Positions 27,092 to 52,435 of a DNA stretch of 64,000 bases are shown piece by piece. Positions within the stretch are counted from its first letter, which is position 1. Every line of letters begins with the position of its first letter. The position numbers and the translations under genes are program-made. This stretch comes from Eledone cirrhosa (taxonomy: Eukaryota), in contig OZ024741.1 in assembly GCA_964016885.1 (NCBI GenBank), positions 60,078,001-60,142,000 of the forward strand. Reading direction: 5' to 3'. The notes beneath the pieces are model-generated. The model did not search any database and was not told the origin of the DNA. It saw nothing but the letters and a program-made list of their open reading frames with translations.

Positions 27092-27580
27092 TTGTGTATA
27101 TAGATGTGTATGTGTGTGTATATATATATCTATGTATAAAGTGTTCACTGCCGAACCAGTTTTCCAACATATGAATTATTTATCTTAGATGACCAGGAAC
27201 TTGTTAAACAGAAAATACTACATCTGTAATATAACACATGAAATTATTCATCTGTTAGGTTGATTTTATTCTTGTTAACACGTTAATTATAACACACAGC
27301 AAATATTAATGCATATACAAATACAGACATCCTAAGACTCAAACAATATTCACACAAATATATTTCAATTACATGTTTTTTTGTATTTTTCTGAATATAA
27401 ATATCTATATTCGGTTTGATAAATGCCCTTAAGCACGAACCAGCTGAGCCGCAAGTCACTGCTGTATATGTACAAATATAATAAAACATGTCACTTGTAA
27501 TGTAGACGAGTCATGCAGTAAATAAAAACACGTACACGGAGTGAATTCTACTTCTGATTTTATTATTAATCAGTCAAGTA

Positions 27581-27789
27581 GGGCGGTGAATTGGCAGTAT
27601 CGGTAGAGGGTCGGACGTCATGCTTTGCAGCAAAGAGTTACGCCCCTTTATGATCTGAGTTCAAATCCCGCCGAGGTTAACTTTGCCTTTCATCCTTACG
27701 GGGTCGATAAAATGAAGTACAAGTCACGCACTGGATTAATCGACTTTCCCCTCCCCCAAATTGCTGGCCTTGTGTCTATATAAGAAATC
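27581..27789 (+). mobile_element. tRNA-derived SINE, full length, 19 bp TSD
   Basis: A box tggcagtatcgg, B box gagttcaaatccc, central gcctttcatccttacggggtcgataaaa. The TSD attattaatcagtcaagta lies at 27562-80 and 27790-808. Confidence 0.95.
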
Positions 27790-28602
27790 ATTATTAATCA
27801 GTCAAGTATCCCATCCATTACTTGAATAAATTCCGAAGTCTTCACAAGCAAATACGAAAGCGGATATGCGATAATATACGCAACGGTTATGAACATTTTA
27901 TACATTTAAAAAGGATATATATATTTGATTTTGTTACTGAGAGCACTACCATAAACATATGGAAACTAAACCTACATTCGTCACACATTTAAACATAAAT
28001 CACATTACAAACAATATATTAAATACAATATTACATTATTGATTATTATTCTATTAACTGCTGATATAATATGATCAGTTTATGAAATGCAGTTTAAATA
28101 TCTAAGAATACTGAACTAATAACATGTCAGCACACTTTCTGGAAAAAAATTCTATTCTACCATTTACAAAAAATGTTATAGAAACACTTTCCTGTTTTTT
28201 AGGAATTCGCTTCTTCTTGACATTAAACATTCATGCATTTTATTTGGAAAATATAATACATTGAAATCTGTAATCAGATTTACGAATTAAAGGTTAAAAT
28301 AATTTGCAAATAACCAGATTCTGGTCTAGACATAATAAGCGCTGCGTGTATCCTTATCATTCGTTATAAGAAAAATTACATACGGTATGATAGTTGTTTT
28401 GCAACATCAATATAGTAATTCTCTTATATCTCTCGCAATCTACAGAAGTCTTTGCTTTACTGAGGATCTATAAAAGACCGAAAGATGTCCAGAGCAGTCG
28501 ACCATGTTTGCTGAGATTAAATTAAATTAGTATTAGTCAGTCATATACATATATATATAATCATATATACATATATGTGTGTGTTTATATATATATATAA
28601 AT

Positions 28603-28645
28603 AAATAAATATGGTTTTATAAATATAGTTTCCATTTGTTAATAT

Positions 28646-28695
<50 letters not shown>

Positions 28696-28738
28696 ATATT
28701 AACAAATGGAAACTATATTTATAAAACCATATTTATTT
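28603..28738. repeat. Perfect palindrome centred on (TA)n
   Basis: 28603-28651 is the reverse complement of 28690-28738. Confidence 0.92.
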
Positions 28739-28789
28739 CATTATACATATTTCAAGGGCCACCAAGGTGCGCTTTCATCAGATAAAATA
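28734..28789 (-). ncRNA. Minimal hammerhead ribozyme motif
   Basis: Minus strand reads tattttat-CTGATGA-aagcgcaccttggtggccctt-GAAA-tatgtata-atgaaata. It belongs to the same family as 10822-10887. Confidence 0.75.
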
Positions 28790-28922
28790 TAATACAGTTT
28801 AGTTTTATAAATAAATATTGACATACCCTGAAAAAATGCAATCTTACCGGTTGGAGCTTCCTGGATATCAGTTATAAAAATATTTTAGCTTGTTGTATCC
28901 CAAAAAATTAAATATAACCTCT

Positions 28923-29011
<89 letters not shown>

Positions 29012-29018
29012 ATGCATA

Positions 29019-29064
<46 letters not shown>

Positions 29065-29213
29065 GGATTAAAATACTAGAGCGTGTTGGAGTTAAACACC
29101 CTCTTCGTATTATAGAAATTACAGTAAAAGGTATAGCTCAATGCAGTTAAACAGAGCCAAAAAATTAAGAGAGTAAAACAAAGAATCCTTTAATACATCA
29201 AAAGTTTTTATTA

Positions 29214-29251
29214 GCCGACAATGTTTCATCCTATTAAGGACTCATCAGGGC
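29214..29251 (-). ncRNA. Minimal hammerhead ribozyme, canonical core
   Basis: Minus strand reads gcc-CTGATGA-gtcct taat aggat-GAAAC att GTC-ggc. It lies in a pLTR-like remnant that starts at (TA)n ~29063. Confidence 0.82.
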
Positions 29252-29591
29252 AATCAAAACGACAAGAAGTAATATCGGCAGATACAAGCCGGAAGCTCCG
29301 AAGAATATGGAGTGTACATACACTAAAGTCTTGCAAAAATATATAATAAAAATAAAAATAAAAATAATAAAAATATATAATAAGAATAACTAAGGATGTA
29401 TATAACATTAAGAACCATATTACAAATATAGTTCAAAGCAACTAACCTAAAGCTAAACAAATGTGGTTATATAGAGCAGGAATTATATATAACACAATGT
29501 AATATAACATAATACATTATAATAATATACCTTTACCAACATTAAAATTACAATTAAAAATCAAAAAGCACAATATATACTTGTATATATG

Positions 29592-29623
<32 letters not shown>

Positions 29624-30047
29624 TACAACAATATGCACATCTATGTTCAACTACACAAATTAAGCCTTATTAGAAGTTAGAATATAAAAATAAGCATGAT
29701 AAGAGTGAAAATAATACCAATACATCTACCCAATATACATGAGGCAATAATATGATATAATTACAAGAGACACATATAATAAATAATAAACAATAAAATT
29801 ATATAATTCAATATAATATAATAGATAATCCCGGTTAATTTACACAAACAATATATATGTCACAATAATAATAATATAATGATAATATGTTAACAATGTA
29901 CTAACATTTACAATAAACAATATATACAAATCGATTCATACTGGGTTACAGAGTAAATGAGGAAAAATAAATTATACAATACTCAAAAAACAGTATGTAA
30001 TTTTAATGTTGGTAAAGGTATATTATTATAATGTATTATGTTATATT

Positions 30048-30222
30048 GGCAGTATCGGTAGAGGGTCGGACGCCAAGCTTTGATGCATAGAGTTACGGCC
30101 CTTGCTATTCTGAGTTCAAATCCCGCCGAGGTTAACTTTGTCTTTCATCCTTACGGGGTCGATAAAATGAAGTACAAGTAATTTACTGGGTAATTTCTGG
30201 CCTTGTGCCAATAGTAGAAACA
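30048..30222 (+). mobile_element. tRNA-derived SINE with 13 bp TSD
   Basis: The TSD attatgttatatt lies at 30035-47 and 30223-35. The SINE splits an inverted copy of 29470-29553. Confidence 0.95.
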
Positions 30223-30306
30223 ATTATGTTATATTACATTGTGTTATATATAATTCCTGCTCTATAATAAATAAAATTTCATCGTATCAACCTTAATATA
30301 TATAAT

Positions 30307-30686
30307 TGCTTCTACTTTTGGCACAAGGCCAGCAATTACCCAGTGCATTACTTGTACTTTATGTTATCGACCCCGTAAGGATGAAAGGCAAAGTTAACCT
30401 TGGCGGGATTTGAACTCAGAATGGAAAGGGTCGTATCTCTTTGCGTTAAAGTATGGTGTCCGACCTTCCACCTATACTGCCAATTTACCGCAAATCAATC
30501 CTTAATATATATATAATTGTTTCTACTTTAGGCACAAGGCCAGCAATTAAACAGTACATTATCGACCCCGTAAGGATAAAAGGCAAAGTTAACCTCGGCG
30601 GGATTTGAACTCAGTCTGTAAAGGGACGTAACTATGCTAGAAAGCATGACGTCCAACCCTCTACCGATACTGCCAATTCACCGCCC
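30307..30686 (-). mobile_element. Two tandem SINE copies (30307-30491, 30518-30686)
   Basis: Both match the reverse complement of the SINE consensus, with ttaatatatataat-like flanks. Confidence 0.92.
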
Positions 30687-30729
30687 TTATATATATATAT
30701 AATAATGAAGAATAAGGGTGTGTTCTTAC

Positions 30730-30938
30730 ATCCTTGTATAAATACCGTCATTGCTGTTATATGGATTTCAATCGCATCAATTGCATCCTCATCATATAGC
30801 TATTATGTATTTGTTTTGTATATATATTTGTTTTGTATATATATATATATATACAAAACAAATACATAATAGCTATATGATGAGGATGTAATTGATGCGA
30901 TTGAAATCCATATAACAGCTATGACGGTATTTATACAA

Positions 30939-30942
<4 letters not shown>
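30730..30942. repeat. Fold-back inverted repeat (~90 bp arms) centred on (TA)n, with degenerate hammerhead core
   Basis: 30730-30820 mirrors 30852-30942 with few mismatches. The right arm contains agctat-aTGATGA...GAAA-tccatata-acagct. Confidence 0.9.
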
Positions 30943-30979
<37 letters not shown>

Positions 30980-31560
30980 CTTATATAATGTTGAATAATT
31001 AGTTGTTGGGGTTGGGTTTACTCCAATCGGGAAAAAAATGGTGTAATTTGGATCAATATATTGATCGTCCTGACGAGAATCAGTTGAGTTCAAAATTCAT
31101 CGAACAATTTTTCCCCGAGCACCGCTGGGTGGCTTTAGCTGCCAGTGTTTTTCATAGCTATGGCTTTCTAAATGTTTATTTATAAACATACCATATTTGT
31201 TTAGAAATAAGAAATTCAATCACATACTTGTATACAGCTATGATCGAAATTAAATTCTAATTCCATTTTATATCGTATTTCATATAAAAGGTGTGAATTA
31301 TAGGCACCCTTTATTTTTTCGTTGCATCTACTTGATAAGACATAGTGTTTTATGACCTATAGCATACTGTGATTTATACTTGGTATTATTTCATAACTTG
31401 AGGCTGTATATCACATTATATCTTATATTATACTTTACTTGATATTTTATACTATATATACTTCATATATGCTTAGTAAATTTCTGATATGACGTGTCTC
31501 CATTCCAATAGCTAATGACTTACCATCTTCAAACATATATCACTTATTATCAATCATTAG

Positions 31561-32555
31561 CCGAGGTTGACTTTGCTTTCATACTTACGGGGTCGATAAA
31601 ATAAAGTACCAGTAATGCACTGGTTAATTGCTGGCCTTGTGCCAAAAGTAGAAACAATTAATGTTTTACTACTTATTAACTATTAATTAACTAGTAAATT
31701 CATTTTCCTATATGTTTCTATGTTTCATATATTATCTTATAGTATATCATTATTTTATTTTATTGAGGTTGACTTTGCCTTTCATCCTTACGGGGTCGAT
31801 AAAATAAAGTACCAGTAATGCTGGCCTTGAGCCTAAAGTAGAAACAATTATTTTATTTTATTGCGGTGGATTGGCAGTATCGGTAGAGAGTCGGACGCCA
31901 TGCTTTCCAGCATAGTTACGTCCCTTTACGATCTGAGTTCAAATCCCGCCGAGGTTGACTTTGCCTTTCATCCTTACGGGGTCGATAAAATAAAGTACCA
32001 GTAATGCACTGGGTAATTGCTGGCCTTGTGCCTAAAGTAGAAACAGTTATGAGTATATACGTAGGCAGTATCGGTAGAGAGTCGAACGCCATGCATTGTA
32101 GCATATAGTTACGTCCCTTTTCGGTCTCAGTTCAAATCCCGCTGAGGTTAACTTTGCCTTTCATCCTTACGGGGTCGATAAAATAAAGTACCAGTAATGC
32201 ACTAGGTAATTTGCTGGCCTTGTGCCTAAAGTAGAAACAATTATTTTATCTTATAGTATGTTTTATATTATATCCGTATGTATTTTGATATGACGCCACC
32301 CATTTGATACAGCACCAGCCCCCGACGTATATAACTAATACTTTTCAACTATGTACTTGCATATGTTTTACCTAATATTGGCAGTACCGGTAGAGGGTCG
32401 GGTGCCACGCTTTGACGCATAGAATTACGGCCCTTGCCATTCTGAGTTCAAATCACGCCAAGGTTAACTTTGCCTTTCATCCTTACGGGGTCGATAAAAT
32501 AAAGTACCAGTAATGCACTGGGTAACTGCTCAGCCTTGTGGCAAAAGTAGAAACA
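31561..32555 (+). mobile_element. Cluster of five co-oriented SINE copies
   Basis: Copies at 31561-31657 and 31764-31846 (3' halves), 31863-32046, 32064-32239 and 32379-32555. Confidence 0.92.
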
Positions 32556-33687
32556 ATTATGATTATAATCATACTCTCTACGTACTATATTGACCTCAAC
32601 CCTTTATTAATCTATATAATCTATCATGCCATGAACGATATTTTACCATTACCATTAAATTATCATTATCTGGTGTACGTTACCCCCACAGACTGACTAC
32701 ATGGCGGTCTTCTGAACTATATGCAAGATACCGGGATTTGCTTCTGTACTTTGAGTGCTTAGAATCAATTTTCTTTTTCTTCAGTAAATTGAAAATACTC
32801 GGTCACTGGAACCCTCCCTCGGATTTTGTAGAAATGGTAGTGGGTGGGGTAATTTTCTTCTAATCAATTAATGATTTACTTATAACTAATCACTAAAATT
32901 AGCATTATAATTACCCGCTTTTCGTAACCTTTTACTATTAATAATTTTCACAATTCCTTATAATCTTTATAATTAATTTTTTTAAATCTATTTAACGTAA
33001 CATTTACTTCTAGTTTTTATAATCTTTTATACTTTTATAGCACATTCTTTAATTGATTTTCATCAACACGCTCAGCTGGTTTTCAGTCACAGTCTGCTGC
33101 CGCACAATGTTTACTGTCCCGGACCTATCTGAGTGGCAAATTGTTGGTTCTGTTTAATGGCTTGGAATTATCTGAGTATAGCAGAATCTGTGTCACCATC
33201 AAACACCCCCTACCCTCCTTTGTCAGGCCTATCGACCCATCATGCTTAGCATTGCTGAGTGTGTGCCATTTGGATGGGTTTTGTCACTAGAATAACACCG
33301 AATAGCTGTTCATCATAACACTACCACCGAATAGTGGGCTGTCTCCAAATCAAATATATTCTCTGTTTATATTTACAGTAATCCTGTTATCGATTAGCTA
33401 ATCTTTGCAATCTACACCTGATGATGTCACCAAAGTCTTACGTGATTATCTGATGGTGCAACCAGGCCTTAGAAATACGTTTTGGGGTTTTGCAACATTA
33501 AAACAATGTTTGTAGTCCAGTTTTCTGTTGTCTTCTACATGAATATTTAACTCCGTCCTTGCACGAGCCACGAAATACTATATCTACGATGGATGATTTG
33601 CCTAAGTCGAGTGATTTAACTCATTACATAATACCTTACTAACCGGAATGACCAGATTTACCCATTGGTAAACCATACAACATAAAT

Positions 33688-33785
<98 letters not shown>

Positions 33786-33905
33786 AGAGAGAAATGTCTT
33801 CTATAGGACTAGAACTGTTTCATTCGAAGGAAATCATCTGCTATGTATTGGGTACCTTACTTACTGTTGTTATCCCCTATTGAACCTGGGATACAGACAC
33901 ACATG

Positions 33906-33938
<33 letters not shown>

Positions 33939-34009
33939 TTCGTTTCTGAATTTGTTTAGAAATGATTCTTTATCTGAAAACGTGATTTGAAACCGATATT
34001 GTTATACTT

Positions 34010-34060
34010 TGTTATACTGAAGAGGTCACAGAATGTGTGACGAAAGAACTTTGATAATAT
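34010..34060 (+). ncRNA. Hammerhead-like motif, degenerate
   Basis: CTGAAGA-g gtcac agaatgt gtgac-GAAA. Stems I and III are poor. Confidence 0.45.
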
Positions 34061-34403
34061 ATAAACAATCATCCGGTTGTGGACCCAACCAACCAACCGG
34101 AAATTTATAAATTTATTATAATAAATTGAAGTGAAAGCAACTGGTGCGTGTGTTTCTTAATGGCAACATGACCCTCCCAAAGTATAACAATATATATATA
34201 TATACATATATATATATTAAGTTGTTAAACAATATTCTATGATTATGTCAAAGAATGAGTTTTACACTAGATTGGAAGCACTCAATGGTTAAAAAAATTA
34301 TTTTCAGGAGTTATTAATATTAAAATATAAGTATTAATAAAACTTGACTACCTTGATTAAATCTTAACCATATAACATCTCAGGGTATGTCATGTATCAC
34401 TAT

Positions 34404-34456
34404 ATTGTGTCTGATAAGGACGTACTATTGTACATCCGAAATATGTATAATAAAAT
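34404..34456 (+). ncRNA. Hammerhead-like motif (CTGATAA core) in a small element with inverted repeat 34316-42 / 34480-505
   Basis: attgtgt-CTGATAA-ggacgtac tatt gtacatcc-GAAA-tatgtata-ataaaat. Confidence 0.6.
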
Positions 34457-35347
34457 GTAATTGATCAAAAGAACATCTATTTTATTAATACTTATATTTT
34501 AATATATATACATATATATATATATATGGTACGAGAGAGAGACAGAGAGTGAGAGAGAGAAAGAGAGAGGGAGAGTGAGAGTATATTAATATAAAAAGAG
34601 TATATTTTCTCTTTTGTTGTAATAGGAATATTATAATCCTACTATTGATACCGGAATGATTATTGGGAAATTCAAGTTATTTTGCCGCCATATCAGTAGT
34701 AAACAAGAAATCACTCATTATTGGATAAATATGTCCAGATATTTGATATTATGTTATTGTGTGACCCATATAAAGAAGACAGTCTGAAAGTTTGTTTTTA
34801 TGATTTTTATACAAAGGGGGGAAAAGGCGACAACGTAGACTAAGGTAGCTAAGCTACACTTCAAATAGCTGAAACGTAAATACACTCCAATATGCAATAA
34901 CTAATATTATGTGTAATTTATATTCACTTGACTTTTATTATCAACACGAAATATACTTCGTGTTGTTTCTCTATGTACATAAATTATTCCTTCGTTGGTG
35001 TGCATTATGAATAAACAAAATATGCAGGCCATTATTATTAAAAAAACATAGAGTATAGAAACACCTTTATATTTTTGTATAGATTATCCAGAAACGTTAT
35101 GGCATTATTTGTTCCAATGCAAAAATTACCAGACTGTGAGAGAGAGAGGAAGAGAGAGGGAGAGAGATAGAGAGGGTGAGCGAGAGAAAGAGAGAGAGTG
35201 AGAGAGAAAGAGATAAAAGACATAACAAAACTGGCCGTTAGATAACTATTGCGTATATTGACCACAGGCCTTTTGACCACAGCAATTTGATCGATACTCG
35301 AATGATTTTACCAATCGATTGAACTAGTAAATAACAAAGATAATAAT

Positions 35348-35460
35348 GTGTTTACTTTTGGCACAAGGCCAGCAATTAACCGAGGGTTTTACTGTTGCTT
35401 TATTTTATCAATCCCGTAAGGATAAAAGGCAAAGCTAAACTTGGCGGGATTGAACTCAGA
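35348..35460 (-). mobile_element. SINE, 5'-truncated
   Basis: ggcacaaggccagcaatt...ggcgggattgaactcaga. Confidence 0.85.
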
Positions 35461-35510
35461 ATGCAAATTGCCAATTCAATAATAATAATAATATTAATAA
35501 TAATAATAAT

Positions 35511-35787
35511 CAAGAAATTATGGAGAATCAGATATGTAGGAGCGGTACTGATTGTAGTTGGCGTACTGGGAGCAGTTAGTAAAAGGTTAGATCCATGGCT
35601 TGAGAAGTTAGGAATTAGCACCAGAACAGGGTTGTTGCAGAAAACAGCCTTGATAGGAACAGCAAAGATTCAAAGGATGGTGTTGGAAAGTTGAAATAGA
35701 AGAAATGACCCAAAGGAACTTTGGGCATTGGCTATGGCTCACTCCTTTGGAATAGTGTCGCTAAAATTCAAAAACCTTACGAATAGT
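35511..35787 (+). mobile_element. R4/Dong-type 3' fragment (family C) between two (AAT)n runs
   Basis: KKLWRI..VLIVVGVLGAVSK..LLQKTALIGTAKI matches the RLE C-terminus of the Dong ORFs. (AAT)n lies at 35478-510 and 35788-805. Confidence 0.85.
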
Positions 35788-36082
35788 AATAATAATAATA
35801 ATAATGATTTCATTTATTAGCCACAAGGGCCGACATGTAGGGGACAATACAAAGACAGGGACAGTGGGGGTTTACCATAAGGTCGAGTAAAAGTGCACAA
35901 TGGCAAGACTAATTTAACAATGAAAATATAAAATATAAAATAAACTATGCAAAATATAACAAAATAAATTCCCCGATAGGGGGGTGGACGACCCTGGGGT
36001 GATTCGGGTACCCCACCAATCCTGAACCACCCTGCGCTTCTAGGGCACCCAGGAGAGCACCCCTCTCCTCAAGTTAGCTAAC

Positions 36083-39000
36083 TTATAGGCGCATGGTCAG
36101 AGTAGGCCCATTCACACGAGCCATTCTTGCCACATTCACACACCATTTAGCAAATGTACTGGGGGGCAGCACTTCTCTCTCCACCCTCACCCTCCTTTCC
36201 AGGTGAAACTTGAAGAAGTTGATGAGGGATTGGCCGAAGAGAAAAGTGTCTGTCTTTAGTCCTTTCAACCTGGTCCACCATATAATCTCTTTCGCAACTG
36301 CCACCAGACAGAGGAAAATGTCCTGCTCTTCCTGACCTAAGGAAGGTGGCGGCTCGATCTTCACTATGGACTCGGCCGATAACTGGATTCGTTCCACACG
36401 CGATAGTAGCTGTTCGACATAACTCCACAAGTCAGTAATGCATGGACATTGGACAAGTGCGTGCAGAACGGTTTCGTCGTTCTGTGCGCATCTTGGGCAG
36501 GTCCGTCTGACAGCACTTCCGTGCCTGTAGAGTTTATCCCGAACCGGCAGTGCCCCCCGGTAGCACTACCAAGCGAGGGATTTCTGGAAATTGTCCATCG
36601 TCCCCGGCTCAAAAGTCCTCCGGTACAGACTGGTCAGTTCGACTTCGTCGAAGCCCAAAGCTTCTCCGAGTGCGTCATCGCACTGGCCCACCACTAATCC
36701 TCTATAAAACTCGAGAGTGGAAGTTCCACTGATCGCATTGCCCGCTTGGTAGAGGGCAGTGAGTGCCTGGCAACATTCCAGGTGCCAGTCACCCAGTCTC
36801 GGTTTCTTCTTGACCCAGGGCTGCAGCTCAGTCAAAGAAATGAGCTGCGGAAAGGCCCGTCTGATAAACGGCGACCACACCTGTTCACCATTGAGGCAGA
36901 ATATCTGGAGATGTCGCAGCCTCAACGCATGTTTGCGCATCATTAGCCACGGCATGCCCAGCCCTCCGTGTAGAGGGTGCTGGCAGCAGATGGACCGCCT
37001 CACCAACGGAACTTGTCCCCTCCACAAGAATTTGAAGAGGAGCCGTTCCAACTTGACGAGGCGCGGACGGGGGCAAGGCACGACGATTAGGCGGTAATAG
37101 ATGACGGGCGCGATGTACGCATTCGCCACCTCCGCGCAACCTTTCAGTGATAGCTTCCTCCCAGCCCATTTTTTGGGTGAGACTGGCTACTCTACTCGTT
37201 ACCTCGTCCCAATTCTTTTCCACCTGGAGGTCTGGTCCGAACCAAACCCCGAGCAACTTTACTGGTCCGTCCGTCCAGCGCCCCACGACGCTGTTGGACG
37301 GCATGGGCTTGCCTCTCCAGGTTCCGAGCTGCAAGCCCACCGACTTTTCCGGGTTAAGTTTGGCTCCTGTCAACCTTTCATATTCTTTCAATAAGGTGCC
37401 GACCACCTCGATTTCTGAGGTGTTCGACACCATCACGGTGATGTCGTCCGCATAAGCCGACACCGCCTTTCCACGTCCCGGTTCGAGCGGGATGCCCTGC
37501 AACAGCTCCAGCTTCCGCAGTAAAGGCTCGAGAGTCAATAGGTACAGAAGGGAAGAGAGAGGGCACCCTTGACGGACCGATCGGGAGAGCCGAAATGATT
37601 CCGAGAGGTGGCCATTACCTTTGACCACCGAGCGTGTGCCGCTGTGCATTGCAACGATCCAGCTTCTAAAGACAGGGCCGAAGCCAGCTGCTTTGAGGAC
37701 AAACTCCAGATACCGATGGTCGACCCTATCGAATGCTTTCGATTGATCTAAATTGATCAGTGCCCCACCGAAGCCAGGTTTACACCCTACCCTCTCTATG
37801 ATGTATCGCATGAGGTGGAGATTGTCGTGTATGGACCTGGCTGGGATTGCGCAAGTTTGCGCCTCCCCAACCAAATCCTCGACGACAAGCGCCTATCTCT
37901 TTGCTAACACCTTGGCCAAAATCTTAAACACTGTGTTGAGCAGAGTTATTGGCCTGAAGTTGTCTAATGTATCCTTATTGTTCTCGTCTTTCCTTATCAG
38001 CGTCACCACTCCCCTACTCACAGAACTGGGAATACTCCCATTCTGCTGCCAGTTACAGTAGAGTGCTTCAAGGAGTTCGGAGAACAAGTCTGGCATATTT
38101 ACGTAAAGCTAGTAGGGCAGGCCATCCAAGCCTGGTGACTTGCGCCTCATGCAGCCGACAAGGGCGTCCTGAATTTCGGCTGAAGTAATCGGACTTTCGC
38201 AGCGCTCAGCGTCGTCCGTCGAGATGCGCGGCAAGCCGTCAAGGTAGGGACTGAAATCCGCTACTCTCTCTGACCCGCCACTCTCCCCGAACAACCGAGC
38301 AAAGTGCTGGCGAAAGGCCTCACACATCCGCTTGGAATCGCTTATCTCGTGTCCGTCTCGGTCCGCCAAAGACCGAATTGTGGTTTTATTACCATGCTGC
38401 GCCTCCGCCACGCGGGCCCATCGAACAGCTTTAGTTCCCTCGTTTCTCAGCGCACGCGCCTTAGCTCTGACAATGCAACCTTCGTGTTTGGCATTGAAGA
38501 AATGGTCTAATGCCATTCTCGCCGCTAGCACGTCAGTTGCGATGCCACTACAAATAGCTAGTTCTTTGCTGAACTCTATCGAAGTTACTCTAATCTCTCT
38601 TTTGAGAGCCCCCCACCATCTGTTGTTGATGATTCCCCCTGCCAACTTTTGCTTAACTAACTTATTGACTCGGTCCCTGTAAGCCTTACGTGCCGGAAAT
38701 GACATGTTCAGCTTCCAGTAACCCGGTCCTAACCTACGCGTTTTATTTAGGTCGACCGTACAGATCACAAATTTGTGATCTGAATAGGCGACCGTTTTAA
38801 AAAGTGGACAGCCCACACTATTTCTATCTATTTTCCTAATGAAGATTCTGTCTATATACGATCTAGATGACCCCATTCGGTTGGTCCATGTCCATACTGG
38901 CACATTGGGGAAATCTAGTCGATACCTGTCAGACAGTTGAAACTGGCTGAGTAGGTGCTTGAGGCTTTTGCACCCCCCGCTCCTATCGGCTACTCCCACA

Positions 39001-39445
39001 CAATCCCAGCGTGCGTCTAAGATGCCATTCCAGTCCCCCGCTAACAGTAAAGGGCGAGACGTACCCAGAAAGGTCTCCAGGCGCCTAAAGAAGTCAGGTC
39101 GTCCGGCCCCTGTAGGGGCGTAGGCGGCCAGCAGTCTAAAGGCACCACCTTCGCTACTGCTCACATCCAAGACCACCAACTTACCGTCCGGGTCCCGGAA
39201 GATCGACCTTACCTCGAGATCCAGTCCTTTCCTAAACAGCACTGCCACCCCACCCCCCATTCTCGGCCTGCTAAGATCTGATAGTCGTCGAAAATGGGGG
39301 CTAGTGCACGCGTGTCGGAAATTCTGGTCTCGCTTACGGCAATCACATCCATTTCCAGCGACCGGAGGTCGTTGAGCAGGCGACCCTGCTTCCAGGGTGA
39401 CCCCAGGCCGCGAACATTTAAACTTCCTACTCTTAATATGGCCAT
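36083..39445 (-). pseudogene. Tx1 ORF2 (APE-RT-Zn finger), frameshifted
   Basis: Motifs MAILRVGSLNVRG, AGDWN, YSDH, LDQSKAFDRVDH, VRQGCPLS and AYADD, split over several frames. Confidence 0.93.
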
Positions 39446-39454
39446 ATTGGTAAG

Positions 39455-41442
39455 CTAAGAGAGAGAGAGAGAAGGTTTACTTACCTCCCGGGTCTTGTGA
39501 AGGTCGGGTGGTTCGACCTCCATGGTTGGTGGGGTTTCTTTTGGGGACCCCTTTAAAAGTCTTGATGTGGGTTTCACATTCGGGTTTCCCACGTCTTGAG
39601 GAAAGCTCTCTCGAATTTCTTTGAAGGAATTGAGTGACATTCGGACCAGAAGCAAATCTTCTGGCACGCAAAATGTGCTCATTTCAAAAATCTCCCCCTC
39701 TGTTTGAATGTCCTCGCTTCGCGCTAAGAGGGCCATCAGTTTATCGTTGGCCCTTCTGACAAGCACGAAGTTTTTAACATTTTGTTGGTGTGGTTTTATT
39801 TGTTTTCGTTTTGGTGAAGGTGGTGGCGATGGTTTTGGTGGTGTTGTTTCGGGTATGTCTATGTTTGTTGTAGGTGTGGTGACTGCAATTTCAGGTATTT
39901 GTGTGTCTATTTGTACTTGTGTTTGTTTAGGTTGTTTGCGTTTCGGGGATTGTGGAGGTGGTGTCGATGTTGCTGATGGTGCTGATGTTATTGGGGAAGT
40001 GTCTGCGTTAGTGGTGTCTGTATTTTTTGTTGTGTGTGTTTTTGTGTTTTGTAGGGGCTTTTTTTTTGTGTGAGTTTTCTCTGTTTTTTTGCACTTTTGG
40101 GTTTTCCTTCATCTTCGCTGCTGGAAGACAAAGGGTCTGTGTCTGTGAGTGTCTCTGTGTCTGTGTGTGCGTTTATTTTTTTGTTGTCTATGTATATAGT
40201 TGGGGGGGGGGGGGTAGGCGGAGTGGGAGAGCTTTCCTCGTTTTCTCCTTGGATTGGTTTTGGTGTTGGTGGTGATCCGGCTGCTTTTGATGTTGGTGTC
40301 CGTGTTTTTGTTGATGTTGTTTTTGGTGGTGGTGGTGGTGCAGCTTTCCGTGCTGACACTGGCGTTGGCAACAAAGGAGGTTTGCGACCCCCTGCATTTT
40401 TGCGCTGAGGGCAGAAGGCTTGAAGATGCGTGGCTTCCCCGCAAACGAAGCAGCGTGGCCTTCTTCCGTCAATCATTAGTTGGATTGTTGTCCCGTCCTG
40501 CAGGCGGGCAAAATCTGGGATGTTATTTACATCCCCCGGTTTCATTTGGAGAAGAATCTCCAAATCCATTCCGGACCAGTCTTCTCTCTCTGTCCTTTTG
40601 ATGTCCAGGAGGGTGGTGTCTGTCCCCTCCTCGATTACGCATCCCAGCAGCCACCATATGTTCATTCCTGGTGGGATGCTGGGAATGCGCACCTTCACTG
40701 TCCTTTTACCCATATAGGACGGATGCATGATAATGCGTTCCGTTCTGCAGGGGATCACCGAGCGCTTAATAGCGAGGGCCTCCGATTTGAACAGTACCGA
40801 GATGGTACCGAACTGTTTGCCTCTTGCTTTGTACTCTATGTTACTTCCGATGTACTCCAACGCAGCCTCTACCTCTGCTTGGCTCGCAAGTTCCACTTTT
40901 CGTGTCTGCACCGAAATACATCGAAAGAGCACCGTCCTCCTTTGCATGGCCGCTATTGCCTCGTCCGGGATGGTCAGGTTTGCCCAGGACTTCTCCCGTT
41001 TAATTAGCCTCCACGCTTTGGCTAACTGTTCGTCTTTATCGCTAATATCAATATCGATATTCAATAAGCGCTTTGTTTTTGCTGCTGCTGCTGCTGCAGC
41101 AAATGTGGTGTTTCTGATGCTCTTATTGTTGTTGTTGTCATTCTTGCTGTTGCCACCGCCATCCTTGTTTACATTGAAGCTGTCGGTGTTTTTCTCGTTA
41201 TTGCTCTGAGTTGTTGTTGTTGTGGTGGTGGTGGTGGTGGCGGTGGTGGTGATGTCGTTTTCAGATGATACTGCTGCTATACCAGAAGATTGTGATGGTA
41301 GCTTTTTAGTTTTGCCTTCACATTCAGTAGAGTGGATGACAGGCATGACTGTAGCCGTCGTAGTCGTGGTGAAATCTGGAGTGGCTGCCTTTAAACTTTT
41401 GACCTGAACGTTGTTTACCGTTTCAAGGTCGAAAATTTCCAT
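39455..41442 (-). pseudogene. Tx1 ORF1 (gag-like CCHC), frameshifted near ~40000
   Basis: Contains CFVCGEATHLQAFC with Thr/Pro low-complexity flanks. Confidence 0.88.
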
Positions 41443-41710
41443 AATTTTCTTTTGGTGGGGAGGCGATTTTTTTGTTTTTCGAAAATTTTAAAAATAAATC
41501 TGAATATTCGGGCTTAAAGCCCGAATATTGAGAGGTATCCCTCTCTTTAAATCAAGATGTGTACCTTAAGTTTCGTTAATGACAAGAAAATACAAAAAAA
41601 AAAAATTTAAAACAGCTTAAAGCTACGAACCGTTTCCCCCGCAGACTTGTCTGTCTTCACACATGTGCGGCCATAATAATAATAATAATAATAATAATAT
41701 TAATAATAAT

Positions 41711-41898
41711 TGTTTCTACTTTAGGCACAAGGCCAGCAATTACCCAGTGCATTACTGGTACTTTATTTTATCGACCCCGTAAGGATGAAAGGCAAAGTCA
41801 ACCTCGGCGGGATTTGAACTCAAATCATAAAGGGCCGTAACTCTATGCTGCAAAGCATGGTGTCCGACCCTCTACCGATACTGCCAATCCACCGCCCT
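41711..41898 (-). mobile_element. SINE inserted in the (ATT)n tail of Tx1 copy 3, ~22 bp TSD
   Basis: taataataatattaataataat lies at 41689-710 and 41899-920. Confidence 0.93.
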
Positions 41899-42164
41899 TA
41901 ATAATAATATTAATAATAATGATTTCTTTATTAACCACAAGGGTTTACATAAAGTAGACATTAAGGACAGTACAGGACAATACAGGACGGTACAAATGGG
42001 CATTTCTGCGTGTAAAAAAAACAGAGGATGAAATAAAATAACAAAGAAAAATTCCCCAATAGGGGGGAGACTTCCGAGGGACATTTGTGGAGAAAGCCCA
42101 TTAAAAGACCACAGTGGCCCTGACCACCAGGGCAAGTGCCCTCTCCCAGTTTTCCACCTTTAAT

Positions 42165-45100
42165 TTACAGACACATACTCATTCGGGCCATACTTGCCTG
42201 TCTCACCCATCTTTCAACAAAATGCTGGGAAGAGAGCACTTCCCTCTCTACCCTGATTTTCCTTTTCAGGTGAAATTTGAAAAAGTTAATCAGGGCATCA
42301 CCGAAGAGGTAAGTGCTCGTCTTCAGCCCTTTCAAACGTGTCCACCATACTATCTCTTTCGCCATGGCCACCAGACAGATAAAAACTGCCTGCCCTTCCC
42401 GGCTAAAGGAAGAGGGCGGGGCAATCCTCACGATGGACTCAGCTGATAGCTGGATCCGTCCTACACGTGACAGCAGGTGTTCGACATAAACCCACAAGTC
42501 AGCAATGCTCGGACACTGGACGAGTGCGTGCAGGACGGTTTCGTCGCCCTGTGCGCATCTCGGACATGCCCGGCTGACGGCACCTCCATGCCTGTAATGT
42601 TTATCCCGAACTGGCAAAGCACCCCGGTAGCACTGCCAGGCCAGGGATTTCTGGAAGTTGTCCATAGGCCCCGGCCCGAAAGTCCTTCCGAAGAGATTGG
42701 CTAGTTGATTTTCGTCGACGCCTAGAGTTTCTCCAAGTACGTCGTCGCTCTTCCCCTCCACTAATCCCCTATAGTACGCAAAGGTGGAGTTTCCACCGAT
42801 TACATTGCCCGATTGGTCGAGGGCTGTGAGCGCCTGAAGACATTCCAGTCTCCAAACGCTCCCTCTCGGTCTTCGCTTGACCCAGGACTGCAGCTCCGTC
42901 AAGGAAACGAGCTGGGGAAATACGTGTCTAGCAAACGGCGACCACACCTGATCACCGTCGAGGAAGAGGTGGAGATGTCGTAGCCTGAGCGCGTGTCTGC
43001 CCATCATAAGCCACGGCATGCCCAGCACTCCACGTAGCGGGTGTTGACAGCAGATGGACCGCCTGACCATCGGAGCGCGTCCCTTCCACAAGAAGCGAAA
43101 GAACAAACGCTCCAACGCACTCAGGCGGGGCTTAGGACAAGGTACGACGGTCAGGCGGTAGTAGATGACGGACGCGATGTACGCGTTAGCCACCTCCGCT
43201 CGACCTTTCGGGGATAGCTTCCTCTCGGCCCTTTTCTGGGTGAGAGAAGCCACCCTGCTCGTCACCTCGTCCCAGTTTTTGTTTGTCTGGAGGTCTGGAC
43301 CGAAACAGACCCTTAGCAATTTAACCGGTCCGTCCGTCCAGCGCCCGACGACGCTGTTGGACGGCATGGACCTGCCTCTCCAGGTGCCGAGCTGCAGGCC
43401 CACTGACTTTTCCTGGTTGATCATTGCTCCTGTCACCGCTTTGTATTCTCTTAGTGTAGTGCCGATCGCCTCGATGTGTTTGGCGTTCGACACCACTACG
43501 GTGACATCGTCGGCATATGCTGACACGGATCTTCCGCATCCTAGTTCGCGCGGGACCCCCCTCAACGTCTCCAGTTTGTGCAGTAATGGCTCGAGAGTCA
43601 ATACGTACAATAGGACGAGAGGGGACATCCTTGGCGGACCGAGCGCATGATGTTGAACGGTTCCGAAAGGTGACCGTTCACTCTCACTACAGAGCAGATG
43701 TCGCTGTGCATGGCAGCGATCCAGCCTCTGAAGACGGGCCCAAAGCCAGCCGCCCTCAGGACTGCCGCTAGGTAACGATGGTCGACCCTATCGAAAGCTT
43801 TCGACTGATCTAAATTGATCAAGGACCCACCCGTGCCAGGTTCCCTAGCTACCCTCTCTACGATGTATCGCATGAGGTGGAGTTTGTCGTGGATGCATCT
43901 GCCGGGAATAGCGCATGTCTGTGCCTCTCCCACCAGACCAACAACGACAAGCGCCAACTTCTTTGCTAGCACCTTGGCCAAAATCTTGAACTCTGTGTTT
44001 AGCAGAGATATGGGCCTAAAATTATCTATGTTATCCCCCTTGTTCGGATCCTTTCTCAGCAGCGCCACCGCTCCTCGGCTCACAGAGCTGGGAATTCTCC
44101 CGTTCTGTTGCCAGTTGCAGTAGACGTCCGCCAAGAGGCCTCCGAACAAGTCTGGCATTTGTACGTAAAGTTCATAGGGCAGACCATCCAAACCAGGCGA
44201 TTTACCCCTTGTGCAACTAGTCATTGCATCCCGTACTTCAGCGGTTGTTATCGGCTTTTCGCAACACTCCGCCTCAGTGGCCGAAAGCCGCGGCAGTCAG
44301 TCGAGGTAGACACTAAAGTTCATCCCTCGATCCGGCCCGCCACTCTCCCCGAACAGTTGAGCGAAGTGTCGCTGAAAAGCTTCACACATTTTCCCGGGAT
44401 CGAGTAGCATGCGCCGGTCGTGGTCCACCAAAGACCGGATCGTGGCTTTGTTGCCACGACGCGCATATGCCACTTGGGCCCATTGAACGGCTTTCGTCCC
44501 CTCGTGTCTGAGAGCACGCACCCTAGCTCTGACAACGCAGCCTTCATGCTTTGCATTGAAGAATTGGTCAAGGGCCAATTTCGACGCAAGTACGTCGGTC
44601 GCGATGCCTTTGCTAAGCGCCTCATCTAATTTTCTAACTAATTCTCCCTCTGCTCTATTTTTCTCTATTGCTAAAGTCTTACTAAACCTAATGGACTCTA
44701 TTCTAATTGCTCTTTTCAGAGCAAACCACCACTTGTTGTTGACGATGGCCCCCGTCAACGCCCGCTTAACTAGTTCGCTAATCCGGTCTCTGTAGGCCTT
44801 GCGCGCTAGTAAGGACGCGTTTAGCTTCCAGTAGCCGGGTCCTCGTCTATGAAGCCTATCTAAGTCAAGCACACAGATCACGAATTTGTGGTCCATGTAG
44901 CTGACTATCTTGAATTGTGGACAGCCTATGCTAGACCTATCTATTTCCCTACAAAATACTCTATCTAGATATGATCTGGATGACCCTATGCGATTTGTCC
45001 AAGTCCACATTGGTACATTCGGGAAATCCAATCGGTACCTGTCAGACAGTTGAAAACGCCTGAGCAGGTTGGTGAGGCTCTTGCACCCTCCTTCCCTATC

Positions 45101-45563
45101 CACTAATCCCACACAATCCCAGCGTGCATCTAAGATCCCGTTCGCCCACTAACACTAAAGAGCGGGACGTTCCAAGAAAGTTCTCCAGACGCCGGAAGAA
45201 ATCGGGCCGCCCTGCTCCTGTCGGGGCATAGACGGCCACTAACCTGAAAGCTTGGCTGTCTCCGCTGGTCACGTCCAGCACCACCAACTTACCTTATGGG
45301 TCCAGGAAGATGGCCCGTATGGCAAGATCCAAACCTCTCCGAAAAAGCACAGCAACTCCTCCCCCCGAACCCGGACGGCTGGGAGATGCGTACACATTGT
45401 AGCCGCCGAAGATCGGTGCGAAAGTCTGTGCTTCAGAGATTCTGGTCTCGCTGATGGCCACTACATCTATGTTTAGTGACCTGAGGTCGTTGAGCAGGTG
45501 GCCCTGCTTCCATGACGATCCCAAGCCACGCGCATTTATGCTGCCTATTCTGAGTGAGGTCAT
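42165..45563 (-). pseudogene. Tx1 ORF2 (APE-RT-Zn finger), frameshifted
   Basis: Motifs MTSLRIGSINARG, YMDH, GKSPGLDGLP, SAYADDVT and CPRC..ETVLHALVQC. Confidence 0.93.
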
Positions 45564-45597
45564 GTTGAAAAGGAGTGGAAAAGATGGGAAAGACCAC

Positions 45598-47598: not shown

Positions 47599-47807
47599 TT
47601 TCTTTCAAAGAAATTTTTTGATAATAATAAAAGTTTAAATTTTGGGCACAAGGCCCCAATCTTTTTGGGTGTCCTTTTCGGAAAACAATATATGTGCGCT
47701 TATATATGGTTAACAATAAAAATTTTCCATAAATGGCAATTTTTAACAAACGGAAATAACAAATCTTTGCGGAGCTCACGATGATACGATTTACTACGTA
47801 GGTCGCC

Positions 47808-47860
<53 letters not shown>

Positions 47861-48440: not shown

Positions 48441-48749
48441 GCTAAAAAAGAGGAAGGCATCAAAATATATATATAGACTCAAAAGAAAAAAGAAAAAACA
48501 AACAACAAAACCAAAGCAGCACAGCAACAACAGCAAAAAACGAGAAAAACAAACAGAGAAAAACAAAAACAAAAACAAAAAAAAGAAACCCCCAAAACGT
48601 AAAGAAAATAAGAATGAAGAGAGAAGCAGGCGGACGGACAGAGAAGAGGGGGGGGGGGGAAGTAAAACTTAAAAAACTTAAACTAAGTCAGACATTCGAA
48701 CACTACATTACAATGAAACTTATGCTTATTCATTTTTGGGGCCCTTTCT

Positions 48750-52385: not shown

Positions 52386-52394
52386 AATAACAAC

Positions 52395-52435
<41 letters not shown>

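What the first reader, a model, noticed from the sequence alone, without database searches (positions are those of the whole stretch)
27562..41950. SINE family shares 3' terminus and target with the Tx1 elements: a SINE-Tx1 partnership
Seen: SINE ends are ggccttgtgccaatagtagaaaca-attat (30199-227) and ggccttgtgtctatataagaaatc-attatt (27766-95). Tx1 ends are cttgaggccaataaagaaaca-attatt (copy 1), ggcccttgtggctaataaatgaaatc-attatt (copy 2) and cccttgtggttaataaagaaatc-attatt (copy 3). All three clean SINE TSDs (13, 19 and ~22 bp) begin ATTAT on the SINE strand. Known: tail-sharing SINEs usually pair with CR1/L2/RTE, while L1-group mobilisation is typically poly(A)-based. Inference: these Tx1 enzymes recognise a 3' motif and mobilise the dominant SINE here.
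Basis: partly seen in the sequence, partly recalled or inferred. Interest (0 to 1): 0.75.

Follow-up and report, generated by a model that had tools for sequence, protein, structure and literature searches.

The report
Octopod SINE shares Tx1-like LINE tail
A very abundant short repeat of an octopus-type genome ends in the same small hairpin box as neighbouring L1/Tx1-like jumping genes and sits at the same ATTATT sites, so it is likely copied by their enzymes: a known kind of partnership, seldom seen in this LINE group.

Summary
In 400 kb of randomly chosen genome, 39 of 48 SINE copies with an intact 3' end are followed by ATTAT, against a background of 0.3% per position. Of 57 target-site duplications found, 55 begin ATTAT, and a paralogous empty site in the window shows that ATTAT belonged to the target.

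The LINEs have an endonuclease, a reverse transcriptase and a zinc-finger domain, and human L1 ORF2p is the best solved match. A Tx1 label comes only from the name of a related coral protein. All sampled copies end in (ATT)n and also have (ATT)n upstream.

SINE and LINE tails share 14-18 of the last 26 bases in the same register. They share a 4-bp hairpin with a CTTGT loop whose stem covaries; the SINE carries a compensatory flip.

Three other LINE lineages found have unrelated tails: Dong-like (AAT)n, and two with (TGA)n or (AAG)n.

Trans-mobilisation is inferred, not shown. Precedents exist (SINEU with Tx1-Mar; three L1-clade tail-sharing pairs), so this is a new variant of a known kind.

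The scan's earlier notes report the same pairing on other pieces of this genome.

The parts
27581..27789 (+). Full-length SINE, long subfamily A (209 nt), tail ...GGCCTTGTGTCTATATAAGAAATC. TSD of 19 nt at 27562-27580 and 27790-27808.
30048..30222 (+). SINE subfamily B, lacking about 12 nt at the 5' end. TSD ATTATGTTATATT at 30035-30047 and 30223-30235. An uninterrupted paralogous 'empty site' lies in the other arm of an inverted repeat (29470-29552).
30307..32555 (.). Cluster of seven further SINE copies: 30307-30491(-), 30518-30686(-), 31560-31656(+), 31765-31846(+), 31863-32045(+), 32064-32239(+), 32377-32555(+). Several are 5'-truncated. Six of the seven are followed by ATTAT or ATTAA; 31863-32045 is followed by GTTAT.
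35348..35467 (-). 5'-truncated SINE, preceded by (ATT)n and followed by ATTATTATC.
35521..35780 (+). 3' fragment of a Dong/R4-like LINE. It meets LINE copy 2 tail to tail across the ATT/AAT tract at 35781-35805.
35806..41672 (-). LINE copy 2 (L1/Tx1-like, frameshifted). 3' end ...GGCCCTTGTGGCTAATAAATGAAATC followed by (ATT)6. The 5' end abuts the (ATT)n tract 41673-41710.
41711..41897 (-). Full-length SINE B inserted in the (ATT)n tail of LINE copy 3. TSD of 22 nt at 41899-41920 and 41689-41710. It is 100% identical to a copy on another contig.
41921..47807 (-). LINE copy 3 (young family, frameshifted here). 3' end ...AACCCTTGTGGTTAATAAAGAAATC followed by ATT repeats; (ATT)n upstream at 47808-47858. 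The first 178 nt (47630-47807) are a 5' module that itself ends in a SINE-like hairpin box followed by ATTATTAT.
1669..4085 (-). LINE copy 1 (older, about 70% identical to copy 2). 3' end ...TTGAGGCCAATAAAGAAACA followed by (ATT)n at 1605-1668.
48883..52434 (+). Dong/R4-like LINE with an open 1142-aa frame (RT plus a C-terminal REL-type nuclease motif seen by eye). It ends ...GGAATAACAAC followed by (AAT)n at 52395-52434, which is the opposite strand of the same microsatellite.

Best explanation
The SINE and the (ATT)n-tailed L1/Tx1-like LINEs end in the same 3' box and sit at the same ATTATT target, so the SINE is likely (inferred, not shown) reverse-transcribed and inserted by the LINE's ORF2 protein.

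Shown:
- Both end in a 4-bp hairpin with a CTTGT loop, then a 12-13-nt A-rich spacer ending GAAAYM, then ATTAT.
- SINE TSDs of 8-28 nt (median 15) begin ATTAT(T), and that ATTAT pre-existed in the target.
- The LINEs have (ATT)n on both sides.
- Both have very young copies, and some LINE copies keep an intact ORF2.

Inferred mechanism:
1. The LINE's APE-type endonuclease would nick the bottom strand after 5'-AATAAT.
2. The freed 3' end would pair with AUUAU next to the hairpin box of LINE or SINE RNA.
3. ORF2p would recognise the hairpin box and start cDNA synthesis there.
4. A second nick 8-28 nt downstream would give the TSD.
5. Each insertion restores ATTATT at both ends, which would explain the head-to-tail stacks of SINEs and LINEs.
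For: Tail:
- 14-18 of 26 anchored bases are shared between four SINE variants and LINE tails c3, c1p and c1 (p 0.002 or less). Dong-like gives 8-10 of 26 and the RVT+PHD LINE 6 of 26, neither significant.
- Hairpin on 17 distinct tails: 89.7% of cells paired against 70.5% in shuffles (0 of 500 reach it), and 18-53% when the partner is slid. Three of 4 pairs change on both sides.
- The third stem pair is C-G in 11 of the 12 LINE 3' tails; the twelfth row (L083, misaligned by one column) is unpaired there. It is G-C in all 4 SINE variants and in the LINE 5' module.
- The hairpin is in the minimum-energy fold of 7 of 8 tails.

Target:
- 39 of 48 random-sample SINE ends are followed by ATTAT; 55 of 57 TSDs start ATTAT; position +6 is T in 50 of 57.
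- The window holds an empty-site paralog.
- All 34 LINE c3-type 3' ends seen in 30 loci are followed by ATTAT.
- 12 of 12 full-length copies and 6 of 6 clear 5'-truncated copies have ATT repeats upstream.
- A paralogous copy of the LINE c3 upstream flank also carries the ATT tract.

Activity:
- SINE copies are 95-100% identical in 40 scored places.
- LINE c3 3' ends are 97-100% identical in 40 scored places.
- ORF2 of 1147 aa is intact in 2 of 7 full-length copies read.

Other signs of LINE-type insertion: variable 5' truncation of the SINE. In the random sample, 10 of 75 SINE hits sit directly behind another element's tail junction.
Against: - No experiment was done; the link is correlative.
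- The shared box is short, about 26 nt.
- The hairpin is weak (-3 to -7 kcal/mol; z-scores -1.95 to +0.59) and is not in the best fold of one SINE variant.
- I read the hairpin by eye from these same sequences and chose the 17 rows, so the covariation counts lean towards it.
- No sampled LINE 3' tail has the SINE's exact stem (G-C at the third pair); only the LINE's 5' module has it.
- LINEs leave long ATT runs (11 ends: 0-66 nt, median 16) and always have 3 or more ATT units upstream. SINEs show a median of 6 nt and unique sequence after ATTATT. The two therefore do not behave identically.
- LINE families were sampled from about 0.9 Mb plus targeted searches, not from a whole-genome repeat library. 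RTE and CR1 were not identified by name.
Confidence: 0.7

Rival explanations
1. The partnership is real, but the hairpin box is not what is recognised. Any RNA with AUUAU near its 3' end would be primed by pairing with the nicked AATAAT end (target-primed microhomology), and the box similarity is only a relic of how the SINE tail arose.
For: - The hairpin is thermodynamically weak.
- The SINE stem differs from every sampled LINE 3' stem.
- The sibling LINE lineage keeps the hairpin but uses (ATCT)n; 27 of 30 of its ends are followed by ATCTAT. The repeat, not the hairpin, therefore tracks the target.
Against: - The stem covaries and keeps pairing across diverged lineages: 89.7% paired, 0 of 500 shuffles reach it.
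- The spacer length (12-13 nt) and the GAAAYM end are kept in SINE and ATT-lineage LINEs.
- Among the 87 junctions of the form N40 then ATTATTATT in 464 kb, the families with a conserved end at that junction were the SINE and these LINEs. The others were internal parts of other repeats.
Confidence: 0.15
2. Another LINE drives the SINE, either the Dong/R4-like elements that use the same microsatellite or an unsampled RTE or CR1 family. The resemblance to the Tx1-like tail is then secondary.
For: - Dong-like elements are intact here (1142-aa frame) and occupy the same ATT/AAT tracts. Ten of 30 LINE c3 copies abut one tail to tail.
- RTE is the LINE reported active in octopus (PMC9115989, passages read).
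- My LINE survey is a sample.
Against: - Dong-like ends lie on the opposite strand of the repeat, (AAT)n on the sense strand, and share only 8-10 of 26 anchored bases.
- The (TGA)n and (AAG)n LINE tails are unrelated.
- Variable TSDs of 8-28 nt fit an APE-type LINE (recalled knowledge).
- The flanks upstream of 38 truncated SINE tails cluster only as SINEs, Tx1-like tails or one composite repeat.
Confidence: 0.1
3. The similarity is chance or low complexity (an AATAAA-like A-rich end in an AT-rich genome). The elements merely accumulate together in AT-rich microsatellites.
For: The box is short and A/T-rich downstream of the hairpin, and the LINE part contains AATAAA.
Against: - Anchored identity has p 0.002 or less in 10,000 shuffles for 12 of 12 comparisons with c3, c1p and c1.
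- The mismatches in the stem are compensatory.
- ATTAT follows 81% of SINE ends against a 0.3% background, including at unique-sequence sites.
Confidence: 0.03

Closest known systems
SINEU families and Tx1-Mar LINEs of crocodilians (Kojima 2015, PMC4494074; abstract, passages and section 16 read)
   Same: A SINE is assigned to Tx1-type LINEs because both share an insertion target and were active at the same time. Some of those LINEs also carry SINE-like sequence at their 5' ends, as LINE copy 3 does here.
   Different: - There the target is a Mariner transposon and the heads derive from U1/U2.
- In the parts I read, the argument rests on the target, not on a shared 3' hairpin.
- Here the target is ATTATT/(ATT)n, the host is a mollusc, a tail box is shared, and the SINE is very abundant (about 190 hits per Mb in the sample).
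Kibi (TC)n, Koshi (TTC)n and crocodilian Tx1 families in (TTCC)n/(TTTC)n (as described in PMC4494074 and PMC3812793, passages read)
   Same: APE-type L1/Tx1-group LINEs flanked on both sides by one microsatellite. Sister lineages use different repeats; here these are (ATT)n and (ATCT)n.
   Different: The repeat unit and host differ. No partner SINE is described for them in the passages I read.
ZmSINE2/ZmSINE3 with LINE1-1_ZM and a green-algal pair: L1-clade LINEs with a conserved structured 3' end shared with SINEs (Ohshima 2012, PMC3472496, abstract and opening text read)
   Same: An L1-clade LINE that appears to need a specific structured 3' end, with SINEs sharing it. That survey found such pairs to be rare: three SINEs with L1 tails among 58 pairs.
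   Different: Those are plants and algae. No microsatellite target specificity is mentioned in the text I read.
Stringent SINE/LINE pairs such as the eel UnaSINE1/UnaL2 and zebrafish ZfL2 (Kajikawa and Okada 2002 as cited in PMC4494074; PMC4176376 abstract in a search listing only)
   Same: A 3' stem-loop followed by short repeats, taken as the recognition and priming signal (partly recalled).
   Different: Those are L2-clade LINEs without a strict target. Their mobilisation was shown by assay; here it is inferred.
Dong (R4 clade), specific for (TAA)n (PMC3812793, passage read)
   Same: It uses the same microsatellite, and a Dong-like element sits in this window.
   Different: It has a different nuclease type, the opposite strand orientation and an unrelated 3' end. 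It is a neighbour in the same niche, not the likely driver.

Membership tests
L1 superfamily LINE (L1/Tx1 group) | ORF2 with an N-terminal APE-type endonuclease, a reverse transcriptase and a C-terminal Cys/His motif, collinear with L1 ORF2p | tested here: met
   Pfam on the intact 1147-aa ORF2: Exo_endo_phos 6.6e-14, RVT_1 1.1e-28, zf-RVT 7.7e-08. The best solved relatives are human LINE-1 ORF2p, E 5.9e-52 over residues 17-868. R2 proteins match the RT only, at about 1e-21.
Tx1 clade (within the L1 group) | The RT domain groups with Tx1 reference elements in a phylogeny (RTclass1/Repbase) | not testable with these tools
   No reference Tx1 sequences were available. Indirect evidence only:
- A profile search reaches a coral protein that its source names 'Transposon TX1 uncharacterized 149 kDa protein' (E 1.1e-244, 31% identity over 60% of the query).
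- An Octopus vulgaris repeat annotation lists L1-Tx1 as the only L1-type group among recently active LINEs (PMC13282606, Table 1 passage).
Tx1 clade (within the L1 group) | Target-sequence-specific insertion, typical of many members | tested here: met
   - (ATT)n follows all 34 ends seen in 30 loci.
- (ATT)n lies upstream of 12 of 12 full-length and 6 of 6 clear 5'-truncated copies.
- The sibling lineage is followed by ATCTAT in 27 of 30 loci.
SINE | Short non-coding element with TSDs, variable 5' truncation and high copy number | tested here: met
   - Length 187-209 nt.
- TSDs found in 57 of 134 copies against 9.6 for decoys.
- Start positions spread from 1 to 165.
- 75 hits in 400 kb.
SINE | Head derived from a tRNA (or other small RNA) with an internal Pol III promoter | tested here: inconclusive
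   Rfam gave no match at E up to 1 and ARAGORN found no tRNA. A-box-like and B-box-like motifs (TGGCAGTATCGG, GAGTTCAAATCCC) are seen by eye only, against a recalled consensus.
Stringent-type SINE/LINE partner pair | SINE and LINE share the 3'-terminal sequence | tested here: met
   14-18 of 26 anchored bases, p 0.002 or less, and the same 12-nt spacing to the junction. The shared stretch is short.
Stringent-type SINE/LINE partner pair | Conserved 3' stem-loop | tested here: met
   Covariation on 17 tails. The hairpin is in the best fold of 7 of 8 tails, but the energies are not distinctive.
Stringent-type SINE/LINE partner pair | The LINE proteins mobilise the SINE in trans | not testable with these tools
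   Needs a retrotransposition assay.

The most novel reading that the evidence does not exclude
A site-specific SINE that has reached roughly half a million copies. A sequence-specific Tx1-type endonuclease aims both LINE and SINE at ATTATT. A covarying mini-hairpin next to AUU repeats is the RNA signal. Each insertion rebuilds its own landing site, so the pair seeds and extends (ATT)n microsatellites across an octopod genome. The LINE has even taken a SINE-like module as its 5' end.
Probability: 0.35. Interest if true: 0.65.

Novelty: new variant of a known kind. Interest (0 to 1): 0.5.

Why it matters
SINEs are among the largest repeat classes of octopus genomes: 11.6% in O. vulgaris according to PMC13282606 (passage read). 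Octopus transposon activity is under active discussion, yet I found no paper naming the LINE that drives this SINE. The searches were made, in a library of open-access papers and bioRxiv preprints only.

Naming a likely driver gives a testable system: an intact ORF2, a 26-nt tail box and a 6-nt target.

It would also add an animal case to the few L1-group LINEs that appear to need a specific 3' end, and a new repeat, (ATT)n, to the microsatellite targets of this group.

It would also explain local pile-ups of SINEs and LINEs, and part of the (ATT)n microsatellite load.

Tried and rejected
- **tRNA origin of the SINE head:** Rfam (E up to 1) and ARAGORN found nothing, so it stays unconfirmed. 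Rfam also found nothing in the LINE 5' module.
- **Naming the LINE clade:** The first protein search gave only unnamed or 'hypothetical' relatives. The protein-atlas search gave family content but no clade names. Only the profile search gave one Tx1-named protein.
- **A partner SINE for the (ATCT)n sibling lineage:** None appeared among 19 junctions of the form N60 then ATCTATCTATCT. Three junctions followed by a repeated AAGGCGGGTAAA... start are not SINEs.
- **The LINE 5' module as a free-standing element:** All 14 matches sit in records that also hold copies of this LINE: the window, 12 loci fetched for the LINE, and L092 of the random sample.
- **Folding energies as evidence for the hairpin:** z-scores are not significant, so only covariation is used.
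- **Long inverted repeats:** The repeat finder with a minimum length of 80 missed the inverted duplication around 47860-53033; blastn found it.
- **Scripts:** My first LINE-tail regular expression was wrong and was corrected. In one search the SINE B query was 2 nt short, so TSD offsets there read 2 instead of 0; this was corrected.
- **SINEBase paper:** The look-up failed on a too-short search term and was not repeated, so I did not compare this SINE with the named octopus SINEs (OK, OR1, OR2).
- **Supplementary tables:** Those of PMC3472496 and PMC4494074 were not opened. They may list further L1/Tx1 pairs.


Full report
**What is in the window**

The finding's five sequence ends are all present as quoted. 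The short element is a SINE of 187-209 nt with two subfamilies.
- Subfamily A is long. It is full length at 27581-27789 and has the tail ...GGCCTTGTGTCTATATAAGAAATC.
- Subfamily B is short. It is full length at 41711-41897 on the minus strand and has the tail ...GGCCTTGTGCCTAAAGTAGAAACA.

The window holds 18 SINE hits.

The long elements are three diverged copies of one LINE lineage, all on the minus strand.
- Copy 1 lies at 1669 to about 4085.
- Copy 2 lies at 35806-41672.
- Copy 3 lies at 41921-47807.
- Copies 2 and 3 are 74% identical over 3.4 kb. Copies 1 and 2 are 70% identical over 2.0 kb.

Each LINE copy ends in a related box followed by ATT repeats. Copies 3 and 2 lie head to tail. A full-length SINE has inserted into the ATT tract between them, with an exact 22-nt TSD made of that tract.

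**The TSDs and the target**

The three TSDs are exact, at 19, 13 and 22 nt, and all start ATTAT.

For the 13-nt case the window holds a control. The SINE at 30048-30222 sits in one arm of an inverted repeat, and the other arm (29470-29552) is uninterrupted. Its bases 29501-29513 pair with both TSD copies. ATTAT therefore belonged to the target, and the SINE brought no ATT tail of its own.

**The same pattern in the rest of the genome**

The window is G000:C2:60078001-60142000 of a 3.0-Gb genome. I took 40 stretches of 10 kb at fixed round coordinates on nine contigs, and 30 loci around the best SINE matches.

- In the random 400 kb, 39 of 48 SINE copies that reach the 3' end are followed by ATTAT. 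The other nine begin with other five-letter words, and the five most frequent of them each differ from ATTAT at one letter. ATTAT occurs at 0.0030 per position and strand there.
- Over all four sets, 106 of 136 copies are followed by ATTAT.
- A TSD of 8 nt or more starting exactly at the body end was found for 57 of 134 copies, against a mean of 9.6 (maximum 12) when 3' flanks were swapped between copies.
- Of the 57 TSDs, 55 start ATTAT. Position +6 is T in 50 of 57. The base before the site is never G. Lengths are 8-28 nt, median 15.

That finder only looks for TSDs starting at the body end. A looser finder placed them at the same point. There they read as offset 2, because that query was 2 nt short.

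SINE copies are often 5'-truncated. In the random sample, 10 of 75 hits lie directly behind another element's tail junction. One locus holds three tandem copies, each followed by the same ATTATTTAGAACA. The density of 75 hits per 400 kb extrapolates to about 5 x 10^5 copies. This is a rough figure from a small sample.

**What the LINE is**

Copy 3's family is young. The last 301 nt found 40 scored places at 97-100% identity, out of 624 candidates. Seven full-length copies were read, and two of them keep an open ORF2 of 1147 aa.

ORF2 has Exo_endo_phos, RVT_1 and zf-RVT domains. Its best solved relatives are human LINE-1 ORF2p, at E 5.9e-52 and collinear over residues 17-868. R2 proteins match only the RT. 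ORF1 has a CX2CX4HX4C knuckle by eye and no significant Pfam family.

The nearest named protein is from Argonauta hians, at 68% identity, so the host is probably an octopod.

A Tx1 label could not be tested by phylogeny. It is supported only indirectly:
- A profile search hits a coral protein whose source calls it 'Transposon TX1 uncharacterized 149 kDa protein'.
- The insertion is site-specific.
- L1-Tx1 is listed among the recently active LINEs of O. vulgaris (PMC13282606, passage).

**The LINE's target**

- All 34 LINE ends seen in the 30 loci are followed by ATTAT, nearly always as long (ATT)n.
- All 12 full-length 5' junctions have ATT repeats directly upstream. Three of them lie behind SINE tails and two behind LINE tails.
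- So do the 6 5'-truncated copies with a clear junction. Nine further apparent truncations are internal rearrangements or subfamily differences and were not counted.
- The sequence upstream of copy 3's ATT tract (47860-48433) recurs inverted at 52435-53033, at 85% over 618 nt. There too it adjoins the tract, but with a Dong-like element on the other side. I infer from this that the microsatellite pre-dated the insertions.

The LINE therefore behaves like the microsatellite-specific Tx1 elements Kibi and Koshi.

One difference from the SINE is real. The perfect ATT run after 11 ATT-lineage LINE ends, in sets not chosen for LINE content, is 0-66 nt with median 16. After 63 SINE ends it is 0-21 nt with median 6.

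**The shared 3' box**

Seventeen distinct tails were aligned: 12 LINE 3' tails from the ATT and ATCT lineages, 4 SINE variants, and the LINE 5' module. All show the same layout:
- a 4-bp stem;
- a 5-nt loop, CTTGT in most;
- the other half of the stem;
- an A-rich spacer of 12-15 nt ending GAAAYM in the ATT elements;
- then the repeat.

The stem pairs in 89.7% of cells, against 70.5% in shuffles (0 of 500 reach it) and 18-53% when the 3' partner is slid. Three of the four pairs change on both sides. Two of the mismatches between SINE and LINE tails are compensatory: the third stem pair is C-G in 11 LINE tails and G-C in the SINEs.

Caveats:
- I read the structure from these sequences and chose the rows.
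- The sequences are related.
- The hairpin is weak. It is in the best fold of 7 of 8 tails, but the z-scores are not significant.

Anchored, ungapped identity of the last 26 nt between SINE variants and LINE tails with the same spacing is 14-18 of 26 (p 0.002 or less). LINE tails with one extra spacer base score lower in this ungapped count.

**Is another LINE a better match?**

The RT-bearing elements found in about 0.56 Mb not chosen for LINE content were as follows.
- The Tx1-like lineage.
- Dong/R4-like elements, ending ...GGAATAACAAC followed by (AAT)n. This is the opposite strand of the repeat. Anchored identity is 8-10 of 26, not significant.
- A LINE with RVT_1 and a PHD-like motif, ending in (TGA)n. 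Anchored identity is 6 of 26.
- An APE LINE whose 20 fetched copies end ...CGGCCGAAGAAG, often followed by (AAG)n.
- A Penelope-like GIY-YIG frame.

In 798 kb, the motif CTTGT followed within 20 nt by ATTAT occurs 239 times. By upstream sequence:
- 114 are SINE.
- 72 are Tx1-like LINE 3' ends.
- Of the 53 unclassified, at least 13 are the LINE's own 5' module and 4 are a SINE fragment inside a composite repeat.

The flanks upstream of 38 truncated SINE tails cluster only as SINEs, Tx1-like tails or that composite repeat.

I did not identify RTE or CR1 by name, and this is a sample, not a genome-wide library.

**A sibling lineage**

A related LINE, found by chance in L090, is very young. All 88 scored places are 99-100% identical at protein level, and many have a 1153-aa frame. 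It has the hairpin TGCC-CTAGT-GGCA and is followed by ATCTAT in 27 of 30 loci. No SINE with that tail appeared among 19 ATCT junctions.

**Mechanism**

Shown:
- the shared box;
- the covarying stem;
- ATTATT in the target;
- variable TSDs and 5' truncation;
- stacking of elements;
- concurrent young copies, with intact ORF2 in some LINE copies.

Inferred: the order of events given under Best explanation. That means a nick after AATAAT, pairing with AUUAU beside the hairpin, recognition by ORF2p, and a second nick 8-28 nt away. Whether the endonuclease or the RNA pairing sets the target cannot be told from sequence.

**Comparison with what is known**

- A SINE assigned to Tx1 LINEs exists: SINEU with Tx1-Mar, argued from a shared target (PMC4494074).
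- Microsatellite-specific Tx1 elements exist: Kibi, Koshi and crocodilian families (PMC4494074, PMC3812793).
- L1-clade LINEs with a structured 3' end shared with SINEs exist in plants and a green alga: three SINEs with L1 tails among 58 pairs (PMC3472496).
- Dong is the known (TAA)n specialist.

The combination here was in none of the papers my five searches found. It comprises an animal L1/Tx1-like LINE, a shared hairpin box, an ATTATT target and a very abundant SINE. Subscription journals and Repbase Reports are not covered by those searches.

The scan's own earlier notes describe the same pairing on other pieces of this genome. I reached my reading before looking at them, and I do not count them as evidence.

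**Verdict**

It is a new variant of a known kind, of moderate interest.

Noticed in passing
window 48883-52434 (+); also 53772-57429 (+), 61446-64000 (+), 1-1459 (+): Dong/R4-like LINEs. One has an open 1142-aa frame (RT plus a C-terminal REL-type nuclease motif seen by eye) and ends in (AAT)n. Ten of 30 fetched LINE c3 copies abut the 3' end of such an element tail to tail, so two unrelated LINE groups use opposite strands of the same microsatellite.
   Followed up: partly
window 47630-47807 (-): The first 178 nt of the LINE c3 family end in a SINE-like box (GGGGCCTTGTGCCCAAAATTTAAACTTTT) followed by ATTATTAT, as if the LINE master had captured a short tail-bearing element as its 5' end. All 14 matches sit in records that also hold copies of this LINE. 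Rfam found nothing in it.
   Followed up: partly
L090:5854-7567 (-) and L121-L150: A sibling Tx1-like LINE family that is very young (88 of 88 scored places 99-100% identical, many with a 1153-aa frame). It is tailed by (ATCT)n, with hairpin TGCC-CTAGT-GGCA. In L090 it sits in front of a tandem satellite with a unit of about 49 bp.
   Followed up: partly
window 47860-48433 and 52435-53033: An inverted duplication (85% over 618 nt), each copy adjoining an ATT/AAT tract. One copy carries the Tx1-like LINE and the other the Dong-like LINE. The repeat also recurs in L044 and L047 with an embedded SINE-tail fragment (window 53486-53532).
   Followed up: partly
window 29470-29552 with 29996-30266: A perfect or near-perfect inverted repeat (a foldback-like element) whose right arm was hit by a SINE. 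A second SINE in the opposite orientation follows at 30307-30491.
   Followed up: partly
L085:4469-7100 (+); L102:8425-8727 (-); L114:824-3709 (+) and L151-L170: Two further LINE lineages with microsatellite tails. One has RVT_1 and a PHD-like motif and ends in (TGA)n. The other is an APE LINE of 88-92% identical copies ending ...CGGCCGAAGAAG, often followed by (AAG)n.
   Followed up: partly
L114:4110-4300 (+): Another SINE-like family shares the central stretch (GAGTWCAAATYCCG..GAGGTYAAYTTTGCCTTTCAYCCTT) with the SINE studied here but has a different 3' part. This may be a conserved SINE core domain.
   Followed up: no
L101:8132-8791 (+): An open frame with a GIY-YIG domain (E 6.8e-05), probably a Penelope-like element.
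   Followed up: no
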